A stretch of 61,944 nucleotides of DNA, filler included. It is 16 parts of 16 records of this genome, joined end to end, with 100 filler letters (N's around TTAATTAATTAA, not from the genome) between each part and the next. Parts side by side here need not be neighbours in the genome. Positions count along the whole stretch, not along the records: positions 1 to 4,357 come from SRR7504441_134125; 15 more parts are not named here. One strand, given 5' to 3'. Shown here in pieces: positions 1 to 58,212 of the stretch. Numbering within the stretch: the first letter of the stretch is position 1; each line of letters starts with the position of its first letter. The notes under the pieces are model-generated. The model was not told where the DNA came from. It saw only the letters and a list, made by a program, of their open reading frames with translations, and made no database searches. The position numbers and the translations under genes are program-made.

Positions 1-130
1 CAAAAATTAAAGTCTAAGTTTATTCAAGTGCCAAGAGCTCCAAGAATCGTCCGCGCCCGCAAAGTGCCAAGACCTCCAACGGTCTCTAGACATCTCGCGA
101 GGCAGTTGAACAGGGCAGCGGGTGTTCCCG

Positions 131-3100
131 ATGAGCTACACCAAGGCTCGGCTCGCGGTACGGTCTCCCACACCTTGAGCCCTGACTCGTGCCACAGGTT
201 CGCACCTTCTCGTTGACTCAGGACAGCCAGGATCCGCGGGACCCACGTGACCTCTGGGGGCTGGAGCGCTCTCACGGGTCGGGCAGAATTCTGGAGCCAT
301 GCGGGCCGTGATCAGTTCACGTTGCGGCGGACTGTCAACGATTGGCGGTACTACTCTACCAGTGGCAAGATCTGGGGATGTGCGTGCGCTCGGTGGATGG
401 TGCTGAGTGTCGCGGGGCAGATTTTATCATGGGGTGTAACCTGGCGACGGCGGTGTTGTTCGTGCTGCTGCAGTACTCGTCCAAGATCGTCTCAGTCGAG
501 CATCCGTTCGACGTGCAAGTTACCGAAGACCACGACCTCTCGGACGAGAATATAATCACAGCCATGTACGCCATCTCATGGGTAGGCCCCCGCTCGCCGG
601 GCGGTCAGTGGTCGGGTCAGCTGTTCCTGATCGACCTTCTCGTGCGGTTGCTGTGCGCGCTTGACAAGTACCTGCGGGAACTGGCCACACAGTCTGACTG
701 GTCTGGCGCAGAGTCACCTTCTTTGTCCATTTGCGCGACAACATCGGATTCTTCCGCTATGTGCCGTTTCCGTCCATTAATGCCTTCGACCTCACCGCCA
801 TTTGCACCACTCAAGTGGCCTTCTTTTTTAGGAACAATGACGACATGGGTGCACGGTGCGCCAGGAGCACAGCTGGAGCCATAGGGCTGGGTGCGCAGGT
901 ATGACCTGAGTGTGTTCTCCACTGTGAGGATCCTGTACGTGTGTGAAGCCATCACACTCTTCCAGTGAGCCCGTTGGGCTCAGGTCACAGACTGAAGGTG
1001 CATCTCAGGTCACTGGGCTATAAAAAGGCGCGCTTCGCGTCAATCGTGCCCAAGGTACAGCGAGTGGTGCTGGACACAACGCTCACGGCACTCGCGATCG
1101 TTTTCATCGGGGCGGCAATTTTCATGCACATAGAAAACTGGTCTGGTGCCCGCGATCCCAAACTCACATACTTTGACTCGGTCTACTTCATCGTGGTGAC
1201 CATGACAACTGGTGTGCCGGCCGCTCAACCGAGCTGACTCGGGCTGCAGTTGGATATGGTGACTATTCGCCCTCGGACAACTACGCATATGCATTTGTGA
1301 TCTTTCTGATGCTTTATTTGGTTGTGGTCTTATTCCCGAAGGTGCTACCTACAAAGGCGGCCACCAACTGGCCGAACAGATCACCGTGCTGGCCGATGAC
1401 ATTGGGAAGCTCACACCGTACAATTCCAAGCCGGCTGTCTATTCTGAACAACCAGTGATTTTATGGCAGAATGGTGGCCACCCTTCGTTGGACAAGGTAG
1501 CAGCTGGTGTCACGTGCGCGACCGATTGCTGGGTACCAGATCACCAAGATAGCCAAGGAGCTGTTTCATCCAGACACCCATCAGAAGATAGCGCTCTGCG
1601 TTGGTCAGTATGCCTTGTGACCACGCAGTAGTATCTTCTAGGCAGGAGGGGCGGGTGGCCAGAAGCTGCTACTGGCAAAGTAGCACCTTTGGGCCGCTCG
1701 CACCTCCTGTCACTTTCTAACTCGACTTAAATTTAACAATAGCTAACCCGACCTGTGACAGTGAGCGACATGCCGCCTGCACCTGAGTTGGAGACTTACC
1801 TCCAGACCCCACGCATTGGCAATATCTGTTATATCCAAGGCTCGCTGAATGACCCTATGGTCTGCGATCGAGCTGGTGTGCAGTATGCCAAGGTCCCAAG
1901 CCCACCATGATATACACCAAAATGAGATTTGTCTCACAGGCGGTCATTCTGCTGCCAAATCCAAATGCGACTTCCGCACTGGTGGATGACGAAGCGTTGT
2001 GCATTGTGGCGACTCATGTGCGCCGGTTTACAGATGACGCTTGCCTAGCGACAGGGATGACAGCAGATCCTGTTCGGATTGTTCTCGTGCTCAACCAACA
2101 GCATCATGCTGTCTTTTTCGAGAAAAACATGTACGGCGCTGTGCCAAAGGCCTTCGAGGACGAGTGTGAAGTGCTGTCACTTCAGGAGATCGGGCTGCAG
2201 GCTCTGGCGAAGGGGCTGCTCATCCCAGGATTCGGCTGTTTCATTGCAAACCTCACTGCCCATGTGGATGGTCTCAGTAAGAGGACACTTGACCAAGCAT
2301 TCGCCCACGCCAGTGATGACTGGATGAAGGAGTACTTCACTGGGTATGCCAACGAGCTGTACAAGATGCCATTTGAGGCACTTGCTGCCAGAAACCCGCT
2401 GCTGGACCAGATGCCTTTTGAGCACCTGGCTGCATATGTCTATTCTGAGACTAACTGCCTCCTGTTGAGATATGGCAATGAACATGGAGGCACTACCTAT
2501 GAGATTCTGACAGACTCACTTCCGCGTGCAATAGAGGTGTGTCAGCGCGTGGGAGCAATCACACAGGAAGAGCTTCGCGATAAAGACATTTTCAGCGAGG
2601 CTAGAGATTTGCTAAAACAAGCAGGGACCACAAAGGCGAGTCTGATTAAGCAGCTCGATCACGACCGCGACGACGCCAATGCGGTGATTGAAGAAATGGA
2701 ACGCGATCTGTTCCTTCGACTCACTTTCAAAGCGACAGGATTTGAAGCAGCTTATGGAGGTAGTTTGAGAGAGTTTGCTTCTCGGCACCACGTGATAAAC
2801 CCCAACAAGCGACCCGACAAAGGTGGGCCCGATGGACTACTGCAGGAGATTGGCTCTGAGGCGTTGGAATCTCTTGATGGGCATACTATACTGATCGGAG
2901 GCCAAATGTTGCAGGTGAATCTGATAGCCTAGCTTGTCGTTGTGATGGCTAGCTGTACTCATTGTCAGTTGCGCACAGATACCACACTTCGTTCGCGTTC
3001 TCCGCACGTTTGATATGCGCAAAGACAGGATGACCTCAATCGTCATCGTCTCAAAGGAGGATCCGCATCCAGACGTCGTGATGATACTGAAGATGTTTAT

Positions 3101-4063
3101 CAACGTTTATGTGGTTGTCCTTCCTGAAGATGACAACAACAATTTGAGCCTCAGGACGCTCAAGGCAATTCAAATACACAAGGCTAGCGCTGCAGTCTTC
3201 GCCGCGTCTCATGGTGATGATGTAACTGAGACTGGTGTCAAGGATTTCCATCAGCTCTGCATTCGGATGGTAGCCAAGCATTAACTTTGCCAGTCATGTG
3301 TTAAATTGCGTCTGAGGTGTGCCTGTGTGGCAGATGGTTCGTTCGCTGAATTCCGAGTGTAAGACAATTGTGGAGGTGGACGATTATTCTCAGGTGCGCT
3401 ACTTCGTCATTGGAAGCCCTGAATCAAATGCTTGGAGTGACACGTCCAAAATCCAAGAAAGTTTTCACACAAATGTAGCCAAGCAATGGATTCGTCGAAT
3501 GAAGAATGTGAATCGGGCTGCGTGTCTGGCGAGTGGGTGGGTGGTCGAGTCGGTGAGATTGCTCCACGTAACTAACCTGTTGATGACAACGCTGCGTGTA
3601 GGATATGCTGCTCCCTCTCATCACTGCTGGCGTACACAAGAGTCGCAGCGGAGTGTTGCTGAAGGCTATGCTAGGCGGCAGCCAATTCGATTTTGCACTC
3701 AACTGTATTGATCTGCCAGCCGAGTATGTGGGCCGGACCTACAAGGAGCTGCTGCTCAGCATGTGCTACGTGAAGCACATTCCGCTTGCGCTTTACAGAC
3801 AGTCGATTACTGATCATCAAATGTTTGTATACACCAACCCTTTGCCAGATACCGTGCTCCGCGCAGATGACAAGGTGTATTTAACCACTTACCTCAAGGA
3901 AGTCGAATCGGAAGATGCAGGAGGAAGCGATGGTCTGTTGACCTCACAAGCATTCCACATTGCGCTGCAAGCGGGTGCAATTCCTCCAAATGAAATGTAC
4001 AGTCCGCATTCCTCCAAGAATGCGACAGCGGCGCCAATCGACGATGTTTCCGACCAGATGTAA
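131..4063 (+). CDS. Slo/BK-family (RCK-domain) potassium channel, about 15 introns
   Basis: Splicing GT-AG introns restores the pore YFDSVYFIVVTMTT-VGYGDYSP (intron 1212-1249 splits TVGYGD), RCK1 (CYIQGSLNDPMVCDRAGVQYAKAVILLPN; WMKEYFTGYANELY) and RCK2 (YVGRTYKELL..PLALYR..VYTNPLPDTVLRADDKVY). Confidence 0.88.
1641..1711 (+). other. Intronic 33-bp RNA hairpin (pre-miRNA-like geometry) in intron 1604-1761
   Basis: Position i pairs with 3352-i: 26 Watson-Crick pairs, 4 G-U pairs, 3 single mismatches, no bulges, loop GGCAA. Confidence 0.8.
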
Positions 4064-4357
4064 ACTCTGCGGTCGCATTGGCACAGCTGTTGACCCTTGT
4101 GGTGTCCTTGTGTGGTCAAATGAGAGTCGCTGGAATGAATGGAACCTCACTGTGTAGAGCAAACACATATATAGAATGATTAGATATAAGTACAAGTAGC
4201 ATACTTACCAAGATTTCGTGCTCAGTCTACATGTACAGTAGCTTGGCTAGAGCGAGCTCGTCACGTCGTAATTCGTAGAAGTAGTAGATCAAGTTCGAAC
4301 GAAATAGATGCAAAGGAGTAAGTTATTGTATAGGTTATGTGAGCCCTAGGGCCCCGA

Positions 4358-4457
4358 NNNNNNNNNNNNNNNNNNNNNNNNNNNNNNNNNNNNNNNNNNN
4401 NTTAATTAATTAANNNNNNNNNNNNNNNNNNNNNNNNNNNNNNNNNNNNNNNNNNNN
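4358..4457. other. Artificial contig spacer N44-TTAATTAATTAA-N44 (also 8934-9033, 12073-12172, 17071-17170, 21136-21235, 26311-26410, 29666-29765, 33348-33447, 36794-36893, 40488-40587, 43747-43846, 47426-47525, 50586-50685, 54713-54812, 58009-58108)
   Basis: The identical 100-nt N-padded six-frame stop linker occurs 15 times, and genes are truncated at it. Confidence 0.98.
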
Positions 4458-5780: not shown

Positions 5781-5928
5781 GGCAAACGCGACGATCCCTC
5801 GAACCCATGCTGGTTGGCTCACTGCGGTGTGATCTGATATCCATGGACACAACTGTGAAGCTTCACAGACAAACGGCCAAACTCGCCCACAAATAGCTCC
5901 AAATAGCCGGCGCCGCGGCGCCGCGACC

Positions 5929-8685
5929 ATGGCGCGAATGTCGGGCTCGCTCAGCCCGAATTTGGACCCACAGATGTACGACACGGCGCTGGCCCGGCGG
6001 GACATGATGCGAACCCGGGACATGGACCCAATGATGACCGTGGGCGCCGGGGCGATGCCGCCTGACTCGCCCGGGTCGCCCGGGTCGTTGATCGACGACT
6101 ATATGACCGAGACTAGCGTGCAGCCAGCCGCAGGTAAGGCGATCAACCTCGATCACCTGCAGGGGCTATTCGAGGGGCACCGAGCTTTCGCGCCGGAGAT
6201 GCGCGAGCGGCAGGCCAAATGCATGTGGCGGATCTGCAAGCACTACTGCGAGGGACTGCTCATCCGAGACCTGCCGTGCATCACCAGCGTGCTCACGGTG
6301 GCCAAGGCCAACGTTGAGTCAGGGCTACAAGAGTTCCAGCCTCCGTTGGTCGGCGTGCTCAAACTGCTCGGTCTGCCGCTCATCAAGCTCGCATCCTCCG
6401 ACGATCTGAGGAGCATACACAACTTGTGCGAGGTGGTGTGCGCGATGGGGCAATGCACCGAGTGCTCGGACCACGAGGTGGTGGATCAGGCCGCCAAGAG
6501 CTTGGTTGCATTCGCCGGACTCACGAGGATTCACACGTTGGGTGAGGAGGCCAGCGAGACTTTCCTGCAGACTTCGTTCACCCAACGGATTATAGAGCGG
6601 AGCCAGGTGATACCGATTGTCGTGGCAATTCTGCGGGACAATCTAGAGTACCCCGAGAACTCGGCAGCGATTGTTGAGGTCTTGTGTAAATTCTCAGAAT
6701 TCAGCTCCAACTCGAGGCAAATGATTGCTGCAGGGGCATCGGAACTGTTAGTTACGGTACTTACCGAAGACTTTTCACTCCCATCGGTCCGAACTGCGCT
6801 CGAGGTGCTGTGGAACTGTCTGCAGAACGAAGCGAGTGCAAAGGAGGTTCTGGGGACCTGGCACACTGTCAATACACTCAAGGAGTTGCTCGAGAGAATC
6901 CTGGTGCACGGATGCTCAAACCAGCACAAAGAGACGAGGAACGAAGTGCTTGTGCTCTTAAACTTAATCATCCGAAATCCTGAGGCCTTGCCACACTTCT
7001 TGGAGACTGGAGTGATCGAGTTGTTGCTTCACCTAGGCACATCACACGAGCTTGGCTGGGGCGACTCTTTTGTGGCACCATTTTTCCAGCTTACTACTGA
7101 TATTGATTTTGAGTTCAAACAACTGGTATTTGGGGTCATTGGACAACTGTCCGGCGCACCTGAGGCACTCAAGCTGATAATCGAAGCCGATGCAATGCTG
7201 GCGCTTGTGCAGCACCTAGACCCAAACTACACCCAAGTGTCAGTCTGGACCTCAGTACAGGAGCAGCAGCTTCAGCTGCAAGTGCTCCGGATCCTTTTTT
7301 CGATGGCTCCAAAGGCGCTCACAGAGTTTGACAAAGCAGGCGGGTTCACGGTTGTGCTCGATATGCTCTCAGAAGGGAATAACGAGGATGCCACCGAGCA
7401 GCAGGAGGAGAGGGTGCCTCAGGTGCTGTCGCTGGTGATGAGTTTGGCAGCCGAGCAAGGCTTCAAAGAGTCGATGGGCAAGTGTGGTTTCATTTTGCCT
7501 CTGTTGGAAGTGGTCAAGAGTGGCACCGCCTCCCATGCTGGCACTCTCAGGCGGCAGGATGCACTCACAGCCCTGTCGTTACTTTGTGAAGATTGCCCTC
7601 CCAATCAGAGGCTACTTCGAAAGGTGGGTGGGATTGCAGTGATCGCTCCATTGTTGCAGTACAATGCTCGTGATCCCAACAAGCAGGAAAAAGTTGTCAT
7701 GTCAGCAGTAGATTGTGTTTGGAATTCAGTGGTGGGAAATCCAAGGAACGAAGCTACCTTCTTTGGGGAGCGAGGAATGGAGCAGCTGATGGCTCTCACT
7801 GAAGGCTGTCCTCTCTCTATCAGAGCCCAGGTCCTTGGAACAATTGCAGACCTGATGCTCAATCCCAAGGCGCTCTCATTTATGTATGAGTGGAGGTCGG
7901 AGAGCTCGGGGAGGAACATTTTGCAGGTGCTGATTGAGTGCTGGCGCGAAGAGGAATTGCGGCTGGGGCACACTTGCCCCGACGGTGTAGTTACTGACAT
8001 CATGCGACCTTTGCTTGGGGTTGAGCCCAAAGGAGGTCGCCCAGTCGGCAAGAAGGAGAAGCAGGGTGCTGCACAACGCCCAGTGGAAGTGGTGCCCGAG
8101 GAAAAACCAGCAGATCTTAGTCGCACATTGCCTCCTCCTACTGTGTCAGAGGAGGACCTGCGAGCAAATCCGGTGCCTGTTACTGCAAAACAAGTCAAAG
8201 GGGCGCTTATGGGGGCTGAGGATCCAAGCATGATTGCTGGGCAAAACGACCCGTTGTTTATCCAAATTGCTACATCTGATTCCAAGGCAAAGCTTTTTTG
8301 TATCTTAAGGAGACTGGATGTCTCAAAGTTGGAAGATCCGACCCCGGAAGAGCAGGTGAAGCTTGCATTAATCAATTCATACCAAGCATTCAAGGAGTCT
8401 GAGGTTTGGCATGATATTGAAAGGGAGCTTGATGCCGAGGGTGTGCGACCAGTCACGCCGGATGCAACATTTCTGACTGCCAAGGTGGAGGAATCCGAAA
8501 TTAAAGCGCTTGAAGTGCAAAGTGTACAGCAAGCGCTGGTCAAAGATGTAGAAGAGGTTCGGCGAGTTGATCACGAGTGTTTCCTGGAGACAGTGGCAGA
8601 GAGCATGAACAAAGACATTGCACAGTCGATTAAAAAAGGTCGTGCAATGCTGGCTTTGAAGAAGGGGAGAAGCAGCAAAAAGTGA
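5929..8685 (+). CDS. CFAP69: Cilia- and flagella-associated protein 69 (ARM-repeat), essentially intronless, 918 aa
   Basis: Motifs GLLIRDL..KLLGLPLIKLASSD, AVDCVWNSVVGNPRNEATF and EVWHDIERELDAEGVRPVTPD match recalled CFAP69; length fits. Confidence 0.85.
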   Translation: MARMSGSLSPNLDPQMYDTALARRDMMRTRDMDPMMTVGAGAMPPDSPGSPGSLIDDYMTETSVQPAAGKAINLDHLQGLFEGHRAFAPEMRERQAKCMWRICKHYCEGLLIRDLPCITSVLTVAKANVESGLQEFQPPLVGVLKLLGLPLIKLASSDDLRSIHNLCEVVCAMGQCTECSDHEVVDQAAKSLVAFAGLTRIHTLGEEASETFLQTSFTQRIIERSQVIPIVVAILRDNLEYPENSAAIVEVLCKFSEFSSNSRQMIAAGASELLVTVLTEDFSLPSVRTALEVLWNCLQNEASAKEVLGTWHTVNTLKELLERILVHGCSNQHKETRNEVLVLLNLIIRNPEALPHFLETGVIELLLHLGTSHELGWGDSFVAPFFQLTTDIDFEFKQLVFGVIGQLSGAPEALKLIIEADAMLALVQHLDPNYTQVSVWTSVQEQQLQLQVLRILFSMAPKALTEFDKAGGFTVVLDMLSEGNNEDATEQQEERVPQVLSLVMSLAAEQGFKESMGKCGFILPLLEVVKSGTASHAGTLRRQDALTALSLLCEDCPPNQRLLRKVGGIAVIAPLLQYNARDPNKQEKVVMSAVDCVWNSVVGNPRNEATFFGERGMEQLMALTEGCPLSIRAQVLGTIADLMLNPKALSFMYEWRSESSGRNILQVLIECWREEELRLGHTCPDGVVTDIMRPLLGVEPKGGRPVGKKEKQGAAQRPVEVVPEEKPADLSRTLPPPTVSEEDLRANPVPVTAKQVKGALMGAEDPSMIAGQNDPLFIQIATSDSKAKLFCILRRLDVSKLEDPTPEEQVKLALINSYQAFKESEVWHDIERELDAEGVRPVTPDATFLTAKVEESEIKALEVQSVQQALVKDVEEVRRVDHECFLETVAESMNKDIAQSIKKGRAMLALKKGRSSKK

Positions 8686-9033
8686 GCTGGACGTCTCATT
8701 GATTGCCATCGAGCAGCTGAATCATTAGGAGGGCTCAAAGCTGTGGAACTGCTTGCCTCGCATGGTAACACGTGTTCATTTAGGTGAGGACTCGTGGGAT
8801 GCTTGCTACGCAGCTTGGAGATAACCCTTTGAGACCGATTGGAGCTGTATGAAGGGTTGTCTGGATCAGATTGTTGCTGATCTGAAAGAACTACTCGTTG
8901 GTATTTGCATCGCCAGCGGACTCTCCGTCTTCTNNNNNNNNNNNNNNNNNNNNNNNNNNNNNNNNNNNNNNNNNNNNTTAATTAATTAANNNNNNNNNNN
9001 NNNNNNNNNNNNNNNNNNNNNNNNNNNNNNNNN

Positions 9034-28355: not shown

Positions 28356-29665
28356 TCATAGGTGTTGGGATGCAAAATTCTTAACTGCAAACAAACCTGG
28401 GCCAACCAGCTTTCCGCTCTTGAAGCTGATTAGTTGCTGGTGCTGCTCTGGGGTATTTCGCCACACCGTATACGGCGAGTAGTCGGATGTGTTGGTGTAC
28501 ACGTAGTCGGCAAACCTATATTTATCCGCATTTCCTCCTTCCTTTTGGACTAGAGGGGAAAAAATACCAAAGCCCGTCTTTTCATCCATTCCATTCCTGG
28601 GCTGGTAAACTTCTCGGGCCGTCGGAGAAAGATCAGCGATGATATTCATGGTCGAGGAACCGAGCACTATGGCGTTGGCGCAGAACATGTGGTTCAATAC
28701 CGTAACAAACGGTTGGGCAATTTCGGTGGACAATACGACATCGTCCCCAAAGTTGAATTCTTGGACCTTCTTGATCACTGGATTTTTCAAATCCTCTGCT
28801 AAAATGATTACCTCCTTGAGTTGTCCAATGGCGTCGGGGTGGCGCAGGGCTTGAAGGGTGGACTGGACATAAAAGTGCAGCGGTGGCTGGCCATACTTCC
28901 AATGCGGCTGTTTGTCTCTGAAGACGTCTCCACTGCGGAAATACACTGCCACCTTGTACAGGTTCGGGGCTGAGCATGGCTTGCAGCGGAAATAGCGGTC
29001 ACGAAGACCCCAATAAGATGCTACCGCTCGGTTGGCTACCGCTTCCCGAAATAAGTCGTTATTTCCACGACCGCCACTGTGCTTTTTACGCGCTTCAAAA
29101 TATTTCATGTACCACCAGGCGGTTCCCTTCGTGGCCCGCAGCTTTGAGCAGTAGCTCCTGCCACGGCTTTCAATGCGGATATGAGTGTGGTTGGGGTAGG
29201 CAAGGTTTCGAAAGTCGGCGCAATTGAAGGCCGGCGCGTTGCCTTCCGGCGATTTGGTGATGACATTGGGCAGCTTGATCAAGCCATTGCACTCAGCCGC
29301 CCCAACAAGAGTCCATTTGATGGTCACTAGCTTATTGAAGAACCGTCCAATGGTATTGGACGGTTCTTGAATAACGGCAGGGTCATAACCATTGGCGTGC
29401 ATGAAATCGGCTTGCGACATGGTGTGGATGGTGGCGGTGCGGCCATCCGACGATGGCACCAGACAGCGCAGCGTATTCTGGTCAGATCGGGCCGTGGGGC
29501 AAAGGATAGACTCTTCTAGGTCACGGAAGGCAAAGGGCGGCCACGATGCCTTAGCTCGAGCCGGCGGTGCCGGCGCTATCTTGCCAGGTTGCACAAGTGT
29601 TGGCGCAGCGGTAGGAGCTCCAGTGGTCGGAGCATCAGTGGTTGGGGCTGAAGTGGTAGGAGCAC
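28356..29665 (-). CDS. Putative glycosyltransferase (GT11/fucosyltransferase-like) with N-terminal APT repeats, intronless, 5'-truncated
   Basis: VAVYFRSGDVF..YGQPPLHFY..IILAED..ANAIVLGSSTM. Confidence 0.62.
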
Positions 29666-29765
29666 NNNNNNNNNNNNNNNNNNNNNNNNNNNNNNNNNNN
29701 NNNNNNNNNTTAATTAATTAANNNNNNNNNNNNNNNNNNNNNNNNNNNNNNNNNNNNNNNNNNNN

Positions 29766-32700
29766 AGACATGCTCTTCTCACAGGCCGAGATGCTAACCA
29801 TCCTCCGGAGTGTGCCAGTGAGCCAATATTTGCTGCCGGTTGGCGACTGGCACGACGGGCTCGACTTGCCGTTTGTGTATCTGCGTGAGACGATCTCGTG
29901 CAGGGTGTTCATAGGACAGTTGCATGAGCTTGACTCTTGCGGCGAGGAGGCTCACGAATTCAGTCTTCGTGTGAAGATAAACGGCACTCGGGTAGTGTGC
30001 CACCAGTCGCTCGACTTTCACAGCAGCCACCCGTTCGCGGAGTGTATCAGCTACTCGCTCCCACCGGACGCCAGTTCTATCTGTGCCAAGATAACGTTGC
30101 TGTATGATGGTTTCCCCGAGGCATGTGCAACTCACACGATCACCAGTGAGCAATGGGCTGCGAATGGGCAGTATTCCGGTCAGATCGCAGTGCCGCTCAC
30201 GTTCACAAAGCGGGCTAGACTGCGGAGGCGTCTGGGCGATTTCGTTCACGCGCCGGAGAGCGATTCGGTCCAAGCCGCAAGAACTTTAAGAGAAAGCCAG
30301 GTGGGCAGGCTAGACCTGCGGTTTAGCTTGACCGTCTGTGAGCCCGGGAACTGGTTCAAGCCTTCAGAGCACGCCCTCGCTCAGCACAGCGGCGGGCAGC
30401 CGGCGCGTTATGATTCGTGCACCATGGGCAGGCACGCCTGGAGCCCGGCGAGCACGCTGGCACTGCACGACTTCGAGGAAATGCATAAGCAACGCCCAGA
30501 GATTTGGCAGGTACCTGACGGGTCCGGGGGGCTCGCTGACTGCCACAGCTGCCCGCCTCCAGTGGCGCGGGTGACTGCCATCTACGGTGTGAATCTCCCT
30601 ACACCAAGGACCCTTTTCTTGCGCCACCCAGCCGCGCTCTGCACGGGTGGGGCTATGGACGAGCATGCCTTGCGGTCTTGTTTCGAGTTGGACGCCTCCG
30701 GTGATTACGACGGGTTGGCGTGCGTCGATGGGGTGGGTTACGAGACGTCCCAAACTCCGCAGTTTCGGCCCGGTGATCGTACGCCCGTCTTTATGAGTGG
30801 CGATGGCACAGTGCCATACTGGAGCCTGCGGCACGCGGCAACCTGGAGATCCGAACACTGTCAAGTCCAGATCCATGAGCTGCCAGACTGTGACCACAGG
30901 GGAGTGTCGTCTGATTCTCGGATGTTGCACTTGCTCGAGGGCATCCTTGGATTGTGCAGCACACAGGAGCACGAGCAACTCAAGCAGGAGATCGACAAAG
31001 CCGGAGCTGCCGCCCAGGAGCGGTGGAGTAGCTCGCGATGTGCTGGAAACGATTTGTGCGCAGGAATCGCCAAGTTAGGCAGTAGACGATTCGACCAACT
31101 CCGGACGAGGTTTCGTCTGCTGGTTGTGTCGCTGGCAGTGATAAGCCTGCTTGCCTGCGGCTTGGCCCTGGTATATGGCGCCTCCGAGGACTATGGCTTC
31201 ATCTCAGCGATGTCTTGGGCATCGGGCGGGATGGATCTAAAAGGGAGCAGCCTGTCGGGGACAGGATCAGCGTTCATCGTCGATTGGGACCCCAAAGCTT
31301 TTGACCTTGGCGTGCTTACTTATGCATACCTGGGGGACATGATTACCCAGGATGTCACGTACTTGCAGACTGCGGGCCTAATCGCGTACGAGTACGATGC
31401 ATCCTGCAGCACCGCGACCCAGACTTACTCGCAGTTGATATTCCAATACGGGGCCGTCAGCCAGGTTGTGGCATTCAGGCCGGCTTCTATAAAGCTATGT
31501 GTCAAGGTGAACTGTCAAACACACGCACTTGCGCTCCAAGAGTACTCGGATACAGCCGAGTGCGTTGGTCTCGATTCGACTTCGGACTTGTGGGGCGGCC
31601 TGTTCAGTGACAACAGCTGTGTGACAGCCACATTCGCGTACCAGTCCACGACATACAGCATGGGCTTACGAGGGTGTGATTCGAGCGTCGAGACAAATAT
31701 CGACAGTAGGCGAGCATCGGGGCAGGCGTATCTTCCCACTGCACTCGTCTATTACTCGAGCTCCGCAGCTGTGGCCGCACAAATTGTGGCCGTCTTGGGG
31801 GGCATGACTGCATCAGCCTTTGATGCTGCCGCAAAGGCGGCGTTCAAGGACACCATTGCAGCAAGTGCGGGTAGTGTGTGTGGGTGGTCAGGAACCAGTG
31901 CATGCACGGCAACAGACGTCACTATCGTGAGTTCCTCGCGGCGAAATCTCGAAGTCACTTTCGCGTTGACCGCACGAAGCGACGCCTGGGCAACAGAAGC
32001 CCTCTCGAGGATTTCCAGCTACATGGAGACTGAACAATTTATAACCGACCTGGGGGCTCGCAGTGTCATCATCACAAGCGCGCAAGTCACGGAATCTTCT
32101 ACAGTGTCTGAAGTTGCTGAAGAAACTTGCAGGGCGTTCGTACCTAGCGCAGCAGATTGCTACCCAATCGTGTACGACCCTGCGGAGTTAGTCTCATGCA
32201 CGGATGGCCGACAGAGCGTGGCAAGCACCTGTCCGAAGTACTGCAATTTGGCCTACGAGTGTCCTGGTGGGTGTCTTGGAGATGGTTCAGGAAGTTTATT
32301 CGACTGCGGGACAGTTTGCCCCGTGGAAATCTGCACAGTTTCGCGGCGGTCGACTGGCCCTTCCCTGAGGAACGCCACCAGGTCGGCGTCCATGTCGGAG
32401 CATCGGAGGACCACCACAATACCAGTCGTCGAGAGCAGTTCAGTGACCGGTACAAACGGCATGAGCCTAGATGCCGGTGTCTTCTCATACACTGGCCTCA
32501 CATGCACAAGTCTCACCTCGGGTGTCTTGAGCACCAGCGACGGGGAGGTCGCTGTCACTGTACCATACGATTTGACTGTCAGCGGACAAGTGTTCGCCTT
32601 CTACTGCATCTCAGCAGACACGTTGGTTCAGACGACAAGGGGCCTTCCCACCGGCGAATACCAGAAGTGTGTCAACACGTATCAGGCGTGCGTGGAGGTA

Positions 32701-33347
32701 GGGCACGAAGGCACTGGGCTGTGGAAGCACATAAGCTATCTTTGTAACAAGGGATTGGATGCAGATATGTGCAAGAACTGCTACCAGGCGGGCATTGAGA
32801 CGTACATTATTCTGGCTATCACCTGCGCAGTTCAGTTGCCCCTCGTCTGGCTCAGTATTGTGAGGACATCGCCTTTGCAGGATAGCCGGTGCAGCAAATT
32901 CATGTCACTGCCACTGGCTGCTACAGTGATTGCAGGCTCGCTCCTAGCCTATCTCACGTGGTACCTGAGATGCTACGATGGACTCGAAGATCTGATCGAT
33001 GACTCGATTAGCGAGGAGAGTCTCCAAGGCTTTGTTCGAGCCAGGACCGAAGTCAACTGGAACAGCATGCTCCCTCTGCTTGTTGCTAGCCTGGTGCTTT
33101 CTGTATCGGTGGTGAGTATGTTCTTTCATGTGCCAGAGCCGTGGGGTAGCGTGTGCAGAGACCCACGGATCATCGAACCGAAACCAAACAGCGTTCATCT
33201 GGAGTGCTGCTCCGTATCACCTGACCATTGGGGCGCTGATAAGGAGCTGCAGCACTGGCCCATGGATGGAGAGCAAATAGAGCTGGTCCATGGATTGGGG
33301 CTCGCACAAAGGCCCACGGATGGAGAGCAAATAGAGCTCGTACCTAA
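29766..33347 (+). CDS. Large intronless ORF: LCAT-type alpha/beta-hydrolase C-half followed by a claudin/amastin-like 4-TM module with a very large Cys-rich loop; truncated at both ends
   Basis: AIYGVNLPT, SGDGTVPYWSL, DHRG; one TM near 31110-31180 and three near 32800-33130; SEA-like segment; 54-nt tandem duplication (33257 and 33311). Confidence 0.7.
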
Positions 33348-40587: not shown

Positions 40588-41504
40588 CCGGCAACCTTGA
40601 GTTTGAGCTTGGCCGCGACCACCACCGAGACCCCGCAGGCCAGGCATGCGTCTAGCACTCCACACTCGTGCGCATCGTGATTGAGTAGAGAGTACATGTT
40701 GGCACAGAGCAGAAAGTCGACTCCACGCTCCTCACCGGGCAGCTCATAGAGCAACTCCCGGACGTAACGGTCGTTCCAGTCCCGCTTGACCGCCTTGTCC
40801 TCCCCGTCCTCGTCGCTGTTCACGCCGGCGCCAAACGCCCGGATCTTGCCCTCTGCTCGTAGCCGCTGCAGCGTCGCAAACCCGCTCGCCCGGAGTTCTC
40901 CCAGATGCTGCTCAGCCTCGGCGACGCCGTTGGATTGATCGGTGATGTGCGCGGTGGGCTCGAGGTCGTGGATGACCAGCGATTCGACCCGGCCGAGCCC
41001 GGTCCGCTGCAAGCTGTCCTCGAGCTGCCGTTGGAGCGCCGGGCCGGTATAGTCAAACTGGATCCCGAAGTGGTACCCGCCGATCCACCCGACCTTGGTC
41101 CCGTTGCGCGCCTCGGGGTCCGGAACCAGAAACCGGCCCACCTTGGTCTGCACTGTGAACGAGTCCCTGGCCAGCCGATGGAGAGCCAGCCCAAATCTGG
41201 CCTCGCTCAGCCCAACGCCATACCACGGACTGGTATCGAAGAAAGAGACGCCCAGCCGATGGGCAAGCTCGATGGTCCCCAGCGCTTGCTGGTCGGACAC
41301 GTGCTCGTACAAGTCGCCCAGCGGAGCCCCGCCCTGCCCCAGCACCGGCACCCGCAGCGACGAACGGCCCACTTGCCGGAGCCGCTTGTGACGGTCGCGG
41401 TTATCGGGCAGCCGGGCCCGGATCAGGGATACGGCGGCGGCCGCGAGCAGTGCTGGGGGCAGGAGCTGGACGAGCCTTCCGACGCGGGACTGCTCCGAGG
41501 ACAT
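40588..41504 (-). CDS. Aldo/keto reductase, L-fucose/D-threo-aldose dehydrogenase-like, 3'-truncated
   Basis: LGQGGAPLGDLY, FFDTSPWYGVGLSE, TKVGR, FDYT, SLQRTG..IHD, YSLL. Confidence 0.88.
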
Positions 41505-43000: not shown

Positions 43001-43746
43001 ATGCCCGGCCAGAAGCGCAGCAGGCAGCAGGCCGAGGCGCCCAAGAAGCAGCGACGGGTCCGGCGGAAGAAGGACCCGACCGCGCCCAAGAAACCGCTGA
43101 GTTCGTTCGTGCTGTTCTCCCAGGAGATGCGGAGCAAGCTGACCAGCAAGCACCCGGAGATGGGCTTCACCCAGGTTGGGGTCGAGCTGGGAAAGCTGTG
43201 GAAGGCTCAGACCAACCGGACCAAGTGGGACAAGCAGGCCGAGAAGGACAAGCAGCGGTACTCGCGCCAGATGGAGAGCTACGTGCCCGACCCTGTCTTC
43301 CTCCAGCAGCAGGCCAGCAAGGGCAAACGGCTCAAGAAGGACCCGGCCAAGCCCAAGCGGAGCAAGTCGGCCTATCTGATCTTCTGCGACAGGCACCGGC
43401 CGGGGCTCCAGAAGCGGCACGCCGATAAGAAGATGGTCGACCTGGCCAAAGTGCTTGCCGACATGTGGCGGAAGGCCTCCGCAAAGGAGAAGGATCAGTG
43501 CGAGAAGCAGGCCGCCAAGGAGAAGGCCGCGTACCAGAAGCAGCTCGAGAGCTACGTCCCCAGCGCCGAGTACCTGGCCGCGATCGAGGCCAAGAAGCAG
43601 CAGAAGGAGGACGACGCGAACGTCAAGAAGAAGCAGAAGGAAAAGTTGAAGAAGGCCAAGGATAAGGTCAAGGAACTCAACTCGCAGATCGGAGCGATCG
43701 AGAAGAAGATGGTGGCCGCGGCCAAGCTCAAACTCAAGGTTGCCGG
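43001..43746 (+). CDS. Tandem HMG-box protein, 3'-truncated
   Basis: KKDPTAPKKPLSSFVLF..LGKLWK and KKDPAKPKRSKSAYLIF..LADMWR. Confidence 0.92.
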
Positions 43747-54812: not shown

Positions 54813-57800
54813 AGTACACCCGTCGATTCAGTTAGGTTGAGAAGGGCTTCCAAGTGCATTTGACAGACATCGGTCGCTGTTTGCGGAGACGGCGAAGTAC
54901 GTGTGCCGTGATTCATGATGTTGAAATCCACTCCCGCACTGACAAGCCCATCACAGAGATCTCCAATATTATGAAGAAAGAATACCGGTAAGGGCACCAG
55001 ATTCGTTTCCGCTTGGGGAATACCACCAAGACGCTTAGAGATCTCCAAGACGCTTAAAAAGGACTGAATGAGGGCACCATCTTGCGAGCGTTCCATAGGG
55101 GAGAGCTCGGCTAGCGATGAGGGAACGTGCCACCATCCCCTGCTACCACCAGGTCCTCCTCCAGGCGAGACCATTGCATGAAGAATGCTTCCACCACGGG
55201 CATAAGGATTCCGGCAATGGACGAAAGCACCATCCGAAATGGCGTCACGAGCTGCTGCTGCATCTCCAGCTCTGCATGCGTGCCAAAGTCGCTGGTTTGG
55301 ACTTGATCTTACTCTATTGAGGAATGTTGCATCCACCTCGGCGAATGGATGGATGCTGTAGATGTAATTCTTAGGCCCATCGAATACAGTCAATTTGGTC
55401 CAGTCCAATCCTAATGTATTACCTGTTGAAAGCTGTGGCAGACAGGCAAAGGGCTGCGTTTGTTCAGAGGGCCTGGGGAACTTGACTGAGACTACGGCAG
55501 CGTTGATCAATACATCAGCTTGAGCTGCCTCACCGGGTGATCCTTGCATAGTCTGTGCGTCTGCTATATGCCTGGACCAGAAAGCTCCGCATTCTTTGCT
55601 TACCTCCCAGCTATTGGCATAGCTGTACTCCAGAGTCGATATACCACTCATTTGGAAAGGAGTCCGCCACTCATTGTCAAATGTCCACTTGATTCCTCCG
55701 TAACGTATCAGCTGATTTGCAGCATACTCGAGTTCGTCGGCGGTAGAACCGGTCCGAGTTGCAGCCGTAGGTCGACTGAACTCAAGCACATGGTGCCACA
55801 ACTGCATACTTAGTGGGCCCAAGACATTGTTGTCAGGACGAAGCAGAGTGTGCCTTACAAGCAGCTCGAGCAGTGGCAGGTGGCTACCGACACGATCGTC
55901 GGTGGCAAGGCACTCAGCCAGATGCATTGCGCCTGCGCGTGTAGCTGCTTCAATGACATGGGCTCTACTGCTATCACTGTTGTTGATTGTCACACACTGC
56001 TTCAATGTCACGACCAGATCACAACTGTGCGAGACAAACTTGTTGTCCGGAACTGTGGACCCTTTGCAGTAGACACGACAATACCTGAATCGCACTGGTG
56101 CATTGATAGGAGGCATGGGGCTCTGATAACAGAGCCTGAGCTGAATGGCCTCAGCGTTGGAGCTTGGGTCTTCATTCTGATTGTGCAAGTCTCCAACGAG
56201 CATGACTGCTTCACTGGCTTCGGGGAGCCTACTCAAGTCCCACAAAATGCAACCCTGCAGACCGTTGTGGATGTCACCACCGGTTGCTTCCAAGACCTTC
56301 CATGAACAAGGCATACAAATAGTCAGAATGGCACAGGCTAGCCACCCCTGCCCTTCTGCAGGAGCAGTCCAAGCTCTATTCTTGACCTTGATGCAGGCTG
56401 CACGTGCGCAACTCTCGCATTGCATTGTCATCGGCAGCTGATCGACCTCGAGCCTACCATCGAGGTCAAACTGGGCCATCTCTGCAGATGGAGCGCCCCA
56501 GGCCACACTGCAGATCATAAGCGCCTCGTCAGTAGTGTTTGACTGGGCCATGGCTGGCTGCTCTCCGCGCACTACGGGCTTCTCTTGCCTCTTGTGTAGA
56601 GCGGCAGGGTGATAGAGAGGAATGCTTCTACGTGGGGCCAACATCGCATTTAAGCATAATTTATGCTGGCATGCCGACGGATGACCAGGCCCTACGATGG
56701 TAGCTCTGACTTGCCCTTGCTGCACGTATGTCCGATTTGTGTAGCTGCTGCCATCTGGAGTTAGCGAGGCAGAGATGCTTTGACGAAGGTTCAAGAACGC
56801 CCAGCGACGGCTGAAGTTGCTCCACCCTTCATCTAACGGAACACCACCATTCGGTAGCTCAGCTGCCGCTTCAACTGCTGCACTGAATGCAGACATGAAG
56901 GCTACAAAGGAGGACGCTTCAAGGAAGCCTAGTGTAACCAAATGGTGCCGACGCTCCTCCAGTGCCCACTGGCGCTTCGGCGGCTTTGGACCTTTGGGCC
57001 TTTTGGGCCTAGGCGGTGGAGGGGATACTTTCTCAAAGACCCAATGGATGCCCGAGAGATATTCGTCCCAGCTCGAACTGCAAGCTTGAACATACCATTC
57101 CCTTCGACTCGGTTTGAAAAAATTACGGAGATCCATGATCGCAAATACTTCAGTGATGCTGCACGCCCCGGGAAGATCCGAATTGCCGGCCAGGATAAGC
57201 ATCGGCGGAGCGGGTGGCTCTAGAGTGGGCTCGGCCAGCTCGAGCATGTGCCTTGTGGCTTGCAAGTTAGCTCGATCTGACGCATCGACTAGCAGAATGA
57301 ATGCACTGGCGTTTCGTGTCTGTTCTATCGCATCTTGTAGACCTGATGGGTCTATCTCTGAGGGAATTTCCAGCATGGGGCAGTGGCACGAGTATTGAAC
57401 TCCTCTGGGATGGTCGTAACGGTATGTTACTGCGCCATCTGCAGCCTGCGCAGCCTTGGGCTGCTCAGCCATCTTATCTTGCAGCATTCTGTACCGCATA
57501 CAGCCCGCGAGGCCCATGAGCAGTACCTCCCCAATGTCGCGCTGCAGCGGCATCTCTTCCACCGTGGGATACTGCTCGCTGTCTTCATCTGTGTCCTCAC
57601 TGCTGCTAAAACTGCTGCTGTCGCTTTCTTCATCCACCGTGCCTAAGCGGCGGACTTCAGGCCCCTGCTGGTTCCTGTACGAGACGGTGTCCACAGTGGT
57701 GGACTCGGACTGCTTTAGGCCTTCGGTCTCCATGTAGCTGTACCGCTCAATCCCGAGGCACAACACCGGAGGCCCGTTGGCCGCAGGAAAGGGTGGTGTC

Positions 57801-57952
57801 AGTTGGATGGCTGCGTGGATCGCGATTTGCAGCGCTTCGTGTTCGGTGGTCTGATGTACCAGTTGCAGCGTTGGGGTTGGAGTGATGGTTGCCTCGCAAG
57901 CAACCCAGCCGGGGGAGCGCGGGTCCTGGCGGAACACCCGAATCGCTGACAT
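54813..57952 (-). CDS. Intronless multidomain protein: EVH1/PH-like segments, degenerate Arf-like GTPase, ankyrin-like repeat; 3'-truncated
   Basis: AFILLVDASDRANL..MLILAGNSDLPGA..REWYVQACS..GIHW (Arf C-half); LWHACRAGD..GAFVHCRN..GGSILH (ankyrin). Confidence 0.72.
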
Positions 57953-58212
57953 CAGTGACGCATCCGACTAGGACCAACCGGGAGGCGGAGGACCGATCAG
58001 CAACGCCANNNNNNNNNNNNNNNNNNNNNNNNNNNNNNNNNNNNNNNNNNNNTTAATTAATTAANNNNNNNNNNNNNNNNNNNNNNNNNNNNNNNNNNNN
58101 NNNNNNNNTAGAGGGTGCCTACTGTAATCTTAGGTATACAATAAACAATATTTCTACGGCTCTTGTGCGATTTTCGTTTCTTGCGAGATCGAGAGCTTAC
58201 GTACTTGCACCG

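What the first reader, a model, noticed from the sequence alone, without database searches (positions are those of the whole stretch)
1604..1761. Pre-miRNA-like 33-bp hairpin inside the only long intron of the K+ channel gene
Seen: the other channel introns are about 38-64 nt. This one must be 158 nt, because removing it restores IALCV-VSDMPPAPELETYL (BK RCK1). Bases 1641-1711 fold with no bulge into 33 positions (26 Watson-Crick, 4 G-U, 3 isolated mismatches) with a GGCAA loop, followed by an AU-rich flank and branch point GCTAAC. All four transition differences are G-U on the sense strand (A-C on the antisense strand), which points to selection at the RNA level rather than a decayed DNA palindrome. 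Known: Microprocessor/Dicer substrates have stems of about 33-35 bp with single-stranded flanks. Inference: an intron-encoded miRNA-like small RNA in an unexplored protist, or a splicing switch. 1604-1641 itself looks like a normal 38-nt GT-AG intron, and the hairpin could mask a frameshifting 38-nt exon (1642-1679).
Basis: partly seen in the sequence, partly recalled or inferred. Interest (0 to 1): 0.78.

Follow-up and report, generated by a model that had tools for sequence, protein, structure and literature searches.

The report
Stable RNA hairpin inside a spliced intron
A long intron in a potassium-channel gene of an uncultured marine protist holds a very stable 33-rung RNA hairpin that is removed with the intron; it looks like a one-off inverted-repeat insertion, and nothing yet shows it is a microRNA gene.

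Summary
Bases 1641-1711 form an ungapped 33-position stem (26 Watson-Crick, 4 G-U, 3 mismatches, 5-nt loop). Its energy is -53.0 kcal/mol on the sense strand (z -7.8, 0 of 1000 shuffles) and -42.1 on the antisense strand. It is the most stable of 11,838 80-nt stretches scanned. A metatranscriptome contig joins 1603 to 1762, so the 158-nt GT-AG intron is real and leaves as one unit. No internal splice site was seen in use. An independent DNA contig carries the identical intron. The other 11 introns of the gene are 38-64 nt (5 RNA-confirmed, 1 from a loose end).

I found no second copy in the other 57 kb, in four laid runs, or in three public collections. Rfam gives only noise. No small-RNA data, whole genome or orthologous intron could be reached.

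Best reading (0.5): a single-copy inverted-repeat insertion, with a possible TTCTA duplication. As RNA it folds and loops out 71 nt. It fits the positional rules of yeast zipper stems and buries cryptic splice sites. A miRNA-like precursor is not excluded (about 0.15). The 5-nt loop, 71-nt foldback and missing evidence leave that reading untested. The window is 16 joined contigs.

The parts
1604..1761 (+). 158-nt GT-AG intron (phase 1) of the BK-type K+ channel gene
   Evidence: An RNA contig of run X1 skips exactly these 158 nt. Removing them keeps the frame open through 9 exons to the stop at 4062.
1641..1711 (+). 71-nt hairpin: 33 stacked positions and a 5-nt loop
   Evidence: 26 WC, 4 G-U, 3 mismatches. 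Energy -53.0 kcal/mol, z -7.8. Pair probabilities are 0.96-1.00 for 29 of 30 pairs and 0.75 for one, in a 353-nt exon-intron-exon context.
1641..1673 (+). 5' arm, G-rich
1674..1678 (+). apical loop GGCAA
1679..1711 (+). 3' arm, C/T-rich
1636..1640 (+). TTCTA, left copy of a possible target-site duplication, directly against the stem
   Evidence: A repeat of 5 nt or more this close to both stem ends arises in 1.7% of random flanks of the same composition. This is a post hoc test.
1715..1719 (+). TTCTA, right copy, 3 nt after the stem
1680..1685 (+). Cryptic donor GTAGCA, the same hexamer as the authentic donor of intron 1497-1539, buried in the stem
   Evidence: Sequence. Mean unpaired probability 0.0. 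No use seen in RNA.
1709..1714 (+). Cryptic donor GTCACT at the foot of the stem; with the 3' splice site it would define a 53-nt intron
   Evidence: Sequence. Unpaired probability 0.46. No use seen.
1639..1641 (+). Cryptic acceptor TAG at the foot of the stem; with the 5' splice site it would define a 38-nt intron
   Evidence: Sequence. Unpaired probability 0.36. No use seen.
1742..1747 (+). Likely branch-point motif GCTAAC, branch A 15 nt from the 3' splice site
   Evidence: Sequence only. The other introns carry CTGAC or CTAAC-like motifs roughly 15-30 nt from their ends (listing). Inferred, not mapped.
1540..1603 (+). upstream exon (ends ...IALCV plus one base)
1762..1892 (+). downstream exon (VSDMPPAPELETYL...)
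1009..4062 (+). Resolved part of the BK/Slo-type K+ channel gene (pore with TTVGYGD, then RCK region). The gene continues upstream to at least about 230.
   Evidence: Pfam hits: Ion_trans_2, BK_channel_a (3.3e-11), Slo-like_RCK (2.1e-05). Splice joints. The model for 840-1008 is not resolved.

Best explanation
The 158-nt stretch is an ordinary spliceosomal GT-AG intron. It holds a single-copy, 71-nt inverted repeat.

Origin (inferred). The repeat most likely arose as a one-off event. It could be a small foldback-type insertion, with a possible TTCTA duplication at its ends, or a replication template switch. The host would have been an intron of about 79-87 nt.

Action (inferred). On the pre-mRNA the two arms pair into a 33-position stem. 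[quoted passage not shown] About 37 nt remain before the stem and 30-34 nt after it. The stem also buries internal splice-like sites (GTAGCA at 1680, GTCACT at 1709, TAG at 1639-1641). The spliceosome therefore removes the whole intron in one step, as with zipper stems in yeast introns. No separate RNA product is needed.

Shown: the stem, its stability, its strand bias, the one-step splicing, the single copy in the data at hand, and the identical sequence in a second sample.

Inferred: the insertion origin, folding in vivo and the help to splicing. Whether the stem is required or only tolerated is open.
For: Splicing and presence:
- The intron is spliced as one 158-nt unit in an RNA contig that also removes the neighbouring 43-nt intron.
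- An independent DNA contig (run X2, 435 nt, 1349-1783) has the identical intron, so it is not an assembly artefact.

Stability:
- The stem is far beyond chance and forms with probability of 0.96 or more in context.
- The sense strand is 10.9 kcal/mol more stable than the antisense strand.

Geometry:
[quoted passage not shown] - That paper also reports structure enriched around cryptic splice sites (discussion passage seen).
- Here GTAGCA at 1680 has unpaired probability 0.0.

Foreign make-up:
- Hairpin GC is 0.66 against 0.46 and 0.38 for the intron flanks.
- TTCTA flanks both ends (1.7% by chance, post hoc).

Single copy:
- No other match in the window with up to 3 mismatches or by blastn-short.
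- No repeat of 30 nt or more anywhere in the window except one contig's ends.
- In the four laid runs the bin 1607-1752 holds only the one X2 contig (depth 2.6) at 80% likeness or more.
- 0 matches in metagenome contigs, viral contigs and genome contigs.

Base rate:
- Template switching made over 6,000 suitable hairpins in primates, of which at least 18 became miRNA genes (PMC10710096, abstract seen).
Against: - The zipper-stem rules come from modelling the yeast spliceosome, not this organism.
- 0 of 7 other candidate long introns in the window (121-224 nt) fold better than shuffles (z -1.7 to +1.0). A stem is therefore not a general need of long introns here. Those seven are unverified predictions of a noisy script.
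- Without the hairpin the intron would still be 87 nt, longer than the other 11 (38-64 nt).
- The authentic 5' splice site is itself predicted to be partly paired (unpaired 0.29).
- The TTCTA repeat is offset by 3 nt on one side and was tested after it was seen.
- There is no in vivo probing, no mutant, no relative and no raw reads.
Confidence: 0.5

Rival explanations
1. Intronic miRNA-like or siRNA precursor. After or during splicing a Dicer-type enzyme cuts the roughly 30-bp stem into 20-24-nt RNAs that guide Argonaute.
For: - The stem is 33 positions with isolated mismatches and no bulges, has single-stranded flanks, and lies on the sense strand of an expressed host gene.
- All four transition-type differences are G-U on the sense strand, and that strand is 10.9 kcal/mol more stable.
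- Intronic, same-strand location is usual for Ectocarpus and animal miRNAs (PMC4513859, passages seen).
- TSM-made hairpins that became miRNAs are enriched in introns (PMC10710096, abstract seen).
Against: - No small-RNA data exist for it. None of the 23 runs listed is a small-RNA library.
- Rfam gives only mir-498 at 20.9 bits against a gathering score of 85, E 0.22. The whole window has 0 gathering-level hits.
- The apical loop is 5 nt, against 10 nt or more preferred by the animal pathway (PMC10710096, introduction seen).
- The foldback is 71 nt, against means of about 82 nt in eumetazoans and 132-170 nt in plants, green algae, slime moulds and brown algae (PMC4513859, passage seen).
- Stringent miRNAs are accepted in only six lineages (same paper, abstract).
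- No complementary site longer than 14 nt occurs in the window.
- The G-U bias is not significant (p 0.06-0.13, my arithmetic).
- Presence of Dicer and Argonaute could not be tested.
Confidence: 0.15
2. Regulated splicing switch or poison exon. When the stem is melted or bound, the 38-nt (1604-1641) and 53-nt (1709-1761) sub-introns are spliced separately. A 67-nt frameshifting exon (or a 38-nt one using donor 1680) is then included, giving a premature stop and lowering channel expression.
For: - Both flanks look like complete introns of the organism's usual size, GT..AG at 38 and 53 nt.
- The internal donor GTAGCA equals an authentic donor hexamer of the same gene.
- Inclusion would shift the frame: 67 and 38 are not multiples of 3, and my reading runs into a stop.
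Against: The single RNA contig across the site removes all 158 nt. No joint at 1641, 1680 or 1709 was listed in either of the two RNA runs laid. Contigs drop rare forms, however, and X5 had no cover there. The stem is so stable (-53 kcal/mol) that opening it would need an active factor.
Confidence: 0.08
3. One copy of a dispersed mobile family, either a very small MITE or an introner element, that spreads through the genome.
For: - The sequence is an inverted repeat with a possible 5-bp duplication (TTCTA) at its ends.
- Its GC content is foreign to the flanks.
- Introners with inverted and direct repeats are common in marine protists (PMC7789003 and PMC11282704, passages seen).
Against: - No second copy in 57 kb of other contigs, in four laid runs at 80% likeness, or in three collections.
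- The long inverted repeat is internal, 37 and 50 nt from the splice sites. It is not at the intron ends as in described introners. The ends pair over only 4 nt, GUCA/UGAC.
- There is no direct repeat across the exon-intron borders beyond 1-2 nt (printout, my reading).
- The arms differ at 7 of 33 positions, so it is not a recent copy.
Confidence: 0.1
4. A DNA-level palindrome with no consequence at the RNA level. It is a neutral relic, or a protein-binding or cruciform site, and is simply carried along in the intron.
For: - Both strands fold far better than shuffles (z -7.8 and -5.9), as expected of any decayed palindrome.
- The G-U bias is not significant.
- There was no variation to test covariation. 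X2 shows 0 differences in the intron. I expected about 1.4 from the roughly 0.9% difference of its other pieces (my arithmetic).
Against: The region is transcribed and the stem is predicted to form with probability near 1. Some effect on the RNA path is therefore hard to avoid. The sense strand is favoured by 10.9 kcal/mol.
Confidence: 0.12

Closest known systems
Zipper stems of Saccharomyces cerevisiae introns (for example RPS17B), as defined in PMC12350175
   Same: [quoted passage not shown] The linker lengths here (37 plus 30-34 nt) fall inside the published window. Both are found in introns that are long for their genome.
   Different: At 33 positions this is a much longer and more perfect stem than the 6-bp minimum. 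The organism is unknown, with 38-64-nt introns. No probing or mutational evidence exists. Here it is one case, not a class.
Intronic pri-miRNA hairpins (animals; Ectocarpus, PMC4513859)
   Same: Both are stems of about 33 bp with isolated mismatches and single-stranded flanks, on the sense strand of an expressed host intron.
   Different: The loop is 5 nt and the foldback 71 nt. There are no small RNAs, no family match, no known processing enzymes in this organism and no conservation data.
Hairpins made by template-switch mutations (PMC10710096)
   Same: Both are a single-locus inverted repeat created inside an intron, which can be born nearly perfect in one event.
   Different: The event cannot be shown here without an ancestral or sister sequence. 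The arms have since diverged at 7 of 33 positions.
Introner elements and MITE-derived introns (Micromonas, Aureococcus, Amoebophrya; PMC7789003, PMC11282704)
   Same: Both are oversized introns with an inverted repeat and a possible short direct repeat, in a marine protist.
   Different: In introners the inverted repeats sit at the intron termini, the direct repeats overlap the exon borders, and many similar copies exist. Here the repeat is internal, the borders show no duplication and no second copy was found.
Internally symmetrical stwintrons of Hypoxylaceae (PMC8469720, abstract seen)
   Same: Both are introns with 45-55-nt inverted repeats that could form a double-stranded intron RNA, without flanking tandem duplications.
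   Different: Those are nested twin introns that are repeated many times per genome, with terminal symmetry. This is a single canonical intron with an internal stem.

Membership tests
Spliceosomal GT-AG intron | Removed from mRNA exactly at GT..AG borders | tested here: met
   An RNA contig joins 1603 to 1762, skipping 158 nt with GT..AG.
Zipper stem (yeast definition, PMC12350175) | [quoted passage not shown] | tested here: met
   37 nt before the stem and 30-34 nt after it to GCTAAC, 67-71 nt in total. The branch point is inferred from the motif only.
Zipper stem (yeast definition, PMC12350175) | Stem of at least 6 bp formed in vivo with high helix confidence | tested here: inconclusive
   The predicted probability is 0.96 or more for 29 of 30 pairs. 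There is no chemical probing.
Zipper stem (yeast definition, PMC12350175) | Disrupting the stem lowers splicing and restoring it rescues splicing | not testable with these tools
   This needs a minigene assay.
microRNA gene (stringent criteria, PMC4513859 passages) | Hairpin with sufficient pairing between the two products | tested here: met
   30 of 33 positions are paired.
microRNA gene (stringent criteria, PMC4513859 passages) | Reads for both the miRNA and the miRNA*, with a 2-nt offset and homogeneous 5' ends | not testable with these tools
microRNA gene | Dicer-type RNase III and Argonaute present in the genome | not testable with these tools
   No whole genome is held. Only 10 of the window's long ORFs were scanned and none is such a protein.
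microRNA gene (animal Microprocessor substrate) | Stem of about 35 bp with an unstructured apical loop of 10 nt or more (PMC10710096 introduction) | tested here: not met
   The stem length fits (33) but the loop is 5 nt.
Known RNA family (Rfam 15) | Score at or above a family's gathering threshold | tested here: not met
   The best hit is mir-498 at 20.9 bits against 85. The whole window has 0 hits.
Introner element | Many sequence-similar introns in unrelated genes | tested here: inconclusive
   There are 0 further copies in 57 kb, in 4 runs and in 3 collections. The genome itself could not be searched.
Introner element | Inverted repeats at the intron termini that pair the 5' and 3' ends | tested here: not met
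   Only GUCA/UGAC (4 bp) pairs the ends. The long repeat is 37 and 50 nt inside.
Introner element | Direct repeat (target-site duplication) overlapping the exon-intron borders | tested here: not met
   The borders CTGCGTTG|GTCAGT and GTGACAG|TGAGCG share no duplication that restores the spliced sequence beyond 1 nt (printout, my reading).
MITE | Terminal inverted repeats flanked by a target-site duplication | tested here: inconclusive
   The whole element is an inverted repeat. TTCTA lies at 1636-1640 and 1715-1719, offset by 3 nt on the right. The chance rate is 1.7%, tested post hoc.
MITE | Multiple dispersed copies | tested here: inconclusive
   The evidence is the same as for introners: none were found in the limited data.
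BK/Slo K+ channel (host gene) | Pore with a K+ filter, plus BK_channel_a and Slo RCK domains | tested here: met
   Ion_trans_2 on the two pore exons falls below the cut-off when each exon is scanned alone (20.8 and 16.0 bits against 22.5). BK_channel_a scores 43.8 bits (cut-off 26.8) and Slo-like_RCK 24.6 bits (cut-off 24). TTVGYGD appears after splicing.

The most novel reading that the evidence does not exclude
The hairpin is a young, intron-hosted miRNA-like gene in an uncultured marine flagellate. The nearest relatives that the word-based search scored are unnamed environmental proteins, about 71% identical for a ciliary protein encoded on another contig of the window. It would have been born from a single inverted-repeat event and would already be shaped at the RNA level (all transition differences are G-U on the sense strand). 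It would add a further independent origin of hairpin-derived small RNAs outside the six accepted lineages.
Probability: 0.12. Interest if true: 0.65.

Novelty: new member of a known kind. Interest (0 to 1): 0.3.

Why it matters
If the stem helps an oversized intron to be spliced in an organism whose introns are otherwise 38-64 nt, it is a clean natural example of RNA structure making up for intron length outside yeast. A simple arm-swap experiment could test this.

If it instead yields small RNAs, it would point to a miRNA-like pathway in an unsampled marine lineage.

As it stands it is a well-documented single hairpin with an ordinary most-likely explanation. It also shows that stem-length resemblance alone does not make a miRNA.

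Tried and rejected
Dead ends:
- Whole genome: none is held. No genome-wide scan of long introns and no search for Dicer or Argonaute was possible.
- Earlier notes of this scan: nothing for this genome, this sequence or its relatives. A word search gave only an unrelated Naegleria case.
- Public collections: a 26-position degenerate pattern that fits both arms found 0 matches in metagenome contigs, viral contigs and genome contigs. Not even the locus itself is there, so these blanks are weak.
- Orthologous loci: the search for related loci with the 325-aa exon gave 125 pattern matches, none confirmed.
- Protein searches: the same exon against longer proteins found none.
- The repeat finder over the whole window was swamped by the N linkers (after a parameter error). 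I replaced it with my own scan.
- My ORF-linking intron finder was noisy. It gave 27 candidates, and its long ones often jump over small exons, as two known cases in the channel gene show. Its 7 candidates of 121-224 nt are unverified.
- Flanking exons against solved structures: too short to hit BK chains.

Limits of the laid runs:
- Stretches without cover in the laid runs (for example X1, X3 and X5 over 1607-1752) prove nothing.
- All runs were contigs, so neither RNA level, ends nor rare isoforms can be read.

Rejected readings:
- Assembly or amplification artefact: rejected. The arms are imperfect, and an independent DNA contig repeats the sequence.
- The second-best hairpin (29332-29374) as a 45-nt hairpin intron: rejected. 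Its translation carries a GR..N motif with an invariant Asn shared by 8 distant relatives.
- snoRNA or another known RNA in the intron: rejected by Rfam.
Full report
**What the window is.** The 61,944 bases are not one locus. They are 16 contigs of 3.0-5.1 kb joined by N44-TTAATTAATTAA-N44 linkers. The finding lies on the first contig (1-4357, GC 0.52). No whole genome is held. Parts of this contig occur in marine and seawater metagenomes and metatranscriptomes of 15 studies. Other contigs encode eukaryotic proteins: CFAP69-like, HECT, U-box and adenylate kinase. The CFAP69-like ORF has only unnamed environmental relatives among those scored, the best at 71% identity. The source looks like an uncultured marine flagellate, but I could not name it.

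**The gene and the intron.**
- Single exons hit Ion_trans_2, BK_channel_a (3.3e-11) and Slo-like_RCK.
- Splicing joins ...MTT|VGYGD....
- One RNA contig of run X1 (298 nt) skips both 1497-1539 (43 nt) and 1604-1761 (158 nt, GT..AG). The long intron is therefore real and leaves in one step.
- Other RNA-confirmed introns are 41, 38, 64 and 49 nt. A loose end suggests one of 40 nt. Five more of 38-64 nt follow from the reading frame.
- The model for 840-1008 stayed unresolved.
- I could not align the junction peptide to a BK structure, because the flanking exons are too short.

**The hairpin.**
- Bases 1641-1711 form 33 stacked positions: 26 Watson-Crick, 4 G-U and 3 isolated mismatches, with loop GGCAA.
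- Alone it folds at -53.0 kcal/mol, z -7.8, and 0 of 1000 shuffles reach it. The antisense strand gives -42.1, z -5.9.
- It is the most stable of 11,838 80-nt stretches and the best ungapped stem in the window (23.5, next 17.5).
- In a 353-nt exon-intron-exon context, 29 of its 30 pairs have probability 0.96 or more.
- An independent DNA contig (run X2, 1349-1783) repeats the intron letter for letter, with one difference at 1389 outside it. It is therefore not an assembly artefact, but there is no variation to test covariation.

**Is it repeated?**
- No second copy occurs in the other 57 kb, with up to 3 mismatches or by short-word blastn.
- The window has no repeat of 30 nt or more apart from one contig's 37-nt terminal inverted repeat.
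- In the four laid runs at 80% likeness or more, the bin over the hairpin holds only the single X2 contig.
- A degenerate pattern fitting both arms found nothing in JGI metagenome contigs, IMG/VR or the GTDB genomes.
- These blanks are weak, because the locus itself is absent from those collections. Still, nothing points to a dispersed family.

**Signs of an insertion.**
- The stem has GC 0.66, while its intron flanks have 0.46 and 0.38.
- TTCTA stands directly before the stem and again 3 nt after it. Such a repeat arises in 1.7% of random flanks, and I tested this only after seeing it.
- The exon-intron borders show no duplication, and the intron ends pair over only 4 nt. The architecture of described introners is not met. 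Those have terminal inverted repeats, direct repeats over the borders and many copies (PMC7789003 and PMC11282704, passages seen).

**How it may work.**
- The stem begins 37 nt after the 5' splice site. It ends 30-34 nt before the likely branch motif GCTAAC, which lies 15 nt from the 3' splice site.
- That fits the positional definition of yeast zipper stems: at least 10 nt and at least 20 nt from the two sites, and 42-85 nt of linker in all (PMC12350175, methods passages seen).
- Both flanks look like complete introns of the usual size: 1604-1641 is 38 nt and 1709-1761 is 53 nt.
- The stem buries an internal GTAGCA donor (unpaired probability 0.0) that is identical to an authentic donor of the same gene. 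Folding would thus shorten the path and hide decoys.
- Against a general rule: 0 of 7 other candidate long introns in the window fold better than shuffles. Those candidates come from a noisy script.

**The miRNA reading.**
- The stem length, the single-stranded flanks and the sense-strand intronic position fit.
- Against it: the loop is 5 nt, where 10 nt or more is stated for animal pri-miRNAs (PMC10710096, introduction seen).
- The 71-nt foldback is shorter than the lineage means of about 82 to 170 nt (PMC4513859, passage seen).
- Rfam gives only mir-498 at 20.9 bits against a threshold of 85, and nothing over the whole window.
- The defining evidence could not be obtained. That evidence is paired small RNAs with a 2-nt offset, plus Dicer and Argonaute genes.
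- The 4-of-4 G-U bias gives p 0.06 to 0.13 by my arithmetic.
- As a base rate, template switching made over 6,000 hairpins in primates, of which at least 18 became miRNA genes (PMC10710096, abstract seen).

**Verdict.** My confidence in each reading:

| Reading | Confidence |
|---|---|
| Single-copy inverted-repeat insertion that folds on the pre-mRNA and is spliced out with its intron, acting like a zipper stem (whether needed or only tolerated is open) | 0.5 |
| miRNA-like precursor | 0.15 |
| DNA-level relic | 0.12 |
| Dispersed mobile family | 0.1 |
| Regulated switch | 0.08 |

It is a new member of a known kind, of modest interest.

Noticed in passing
whole window; linkers at 4358-4457, 8934-9033... 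58009-58108: The window is 16 separate contigs (3.0-5.1 kb, GC 0.51-0.65) joined by N44-TTAATTAATTAA-N44 linkers. Statements about 'the genome around the gene' apply only to 1-4357.
   Followed up: yes
window 29332-29374 (minus-strand ORF 28356-29717): This is the second-best hairpin of the window: a 20-position stem (19 Watson-Crick pairs, 1 mismatch) with a 3-nt loop (z -5.7). On the minus strand it reads GT...AG over 45 nt, like a small hairpin intron. It is coding, however. Its translation carries a GR..N motif with an invariant Asn, aligned in 8 distant relatives.
   Followed up: yes
window 28359-29663, minus strand (P0009): The protein has no Pfam hit. The word-based search found no relative, but 76 relatives (E up to 0.001; best 1.4e-29, 33% identity) appear in the exhaustive library. 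Invariant Cys, Asp, Gln-Pro and Trp columns are shared. The family is uncharacterised.
   Followed up: partly
window 40588-40624 and 43710-43746: This contig begins and ends with a 37-nt inverted repeat (97% identical, 30 nt perfect). The next contig's ends look similar by eye. This could be a fold-back assembly artefact or a real terminal repeat.
   Followed up: no
window 247-711 versus 1893-3601: Introns in the 5' part of the channel gene are 39-44 nt with GC 0.64-0.77. Three of them fold into small stems of about -18 kcal/mol. Introns in the 3' part are 47-64 nt with GC 0.45-0.49. Intron make-up therefore shifts sharply within one gene.
   Followed up: no
window 840-1008: I could not find GT-AG introns that join the coding frames here (frame 2 to frame 3 to frame 2). 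No RNA contig covered this part. An unusual splice site, a tiny exon or a sequence error may be involved.
   Followed up: partly
window 5833-8682, 29767-33345 and 54815-57967: Three ORFs of 950-1193 codons run without any intron, while the channel gene has about one intron per 300 nt. Intron density is very uneven among the contigs of this bin.
   Followed up: no
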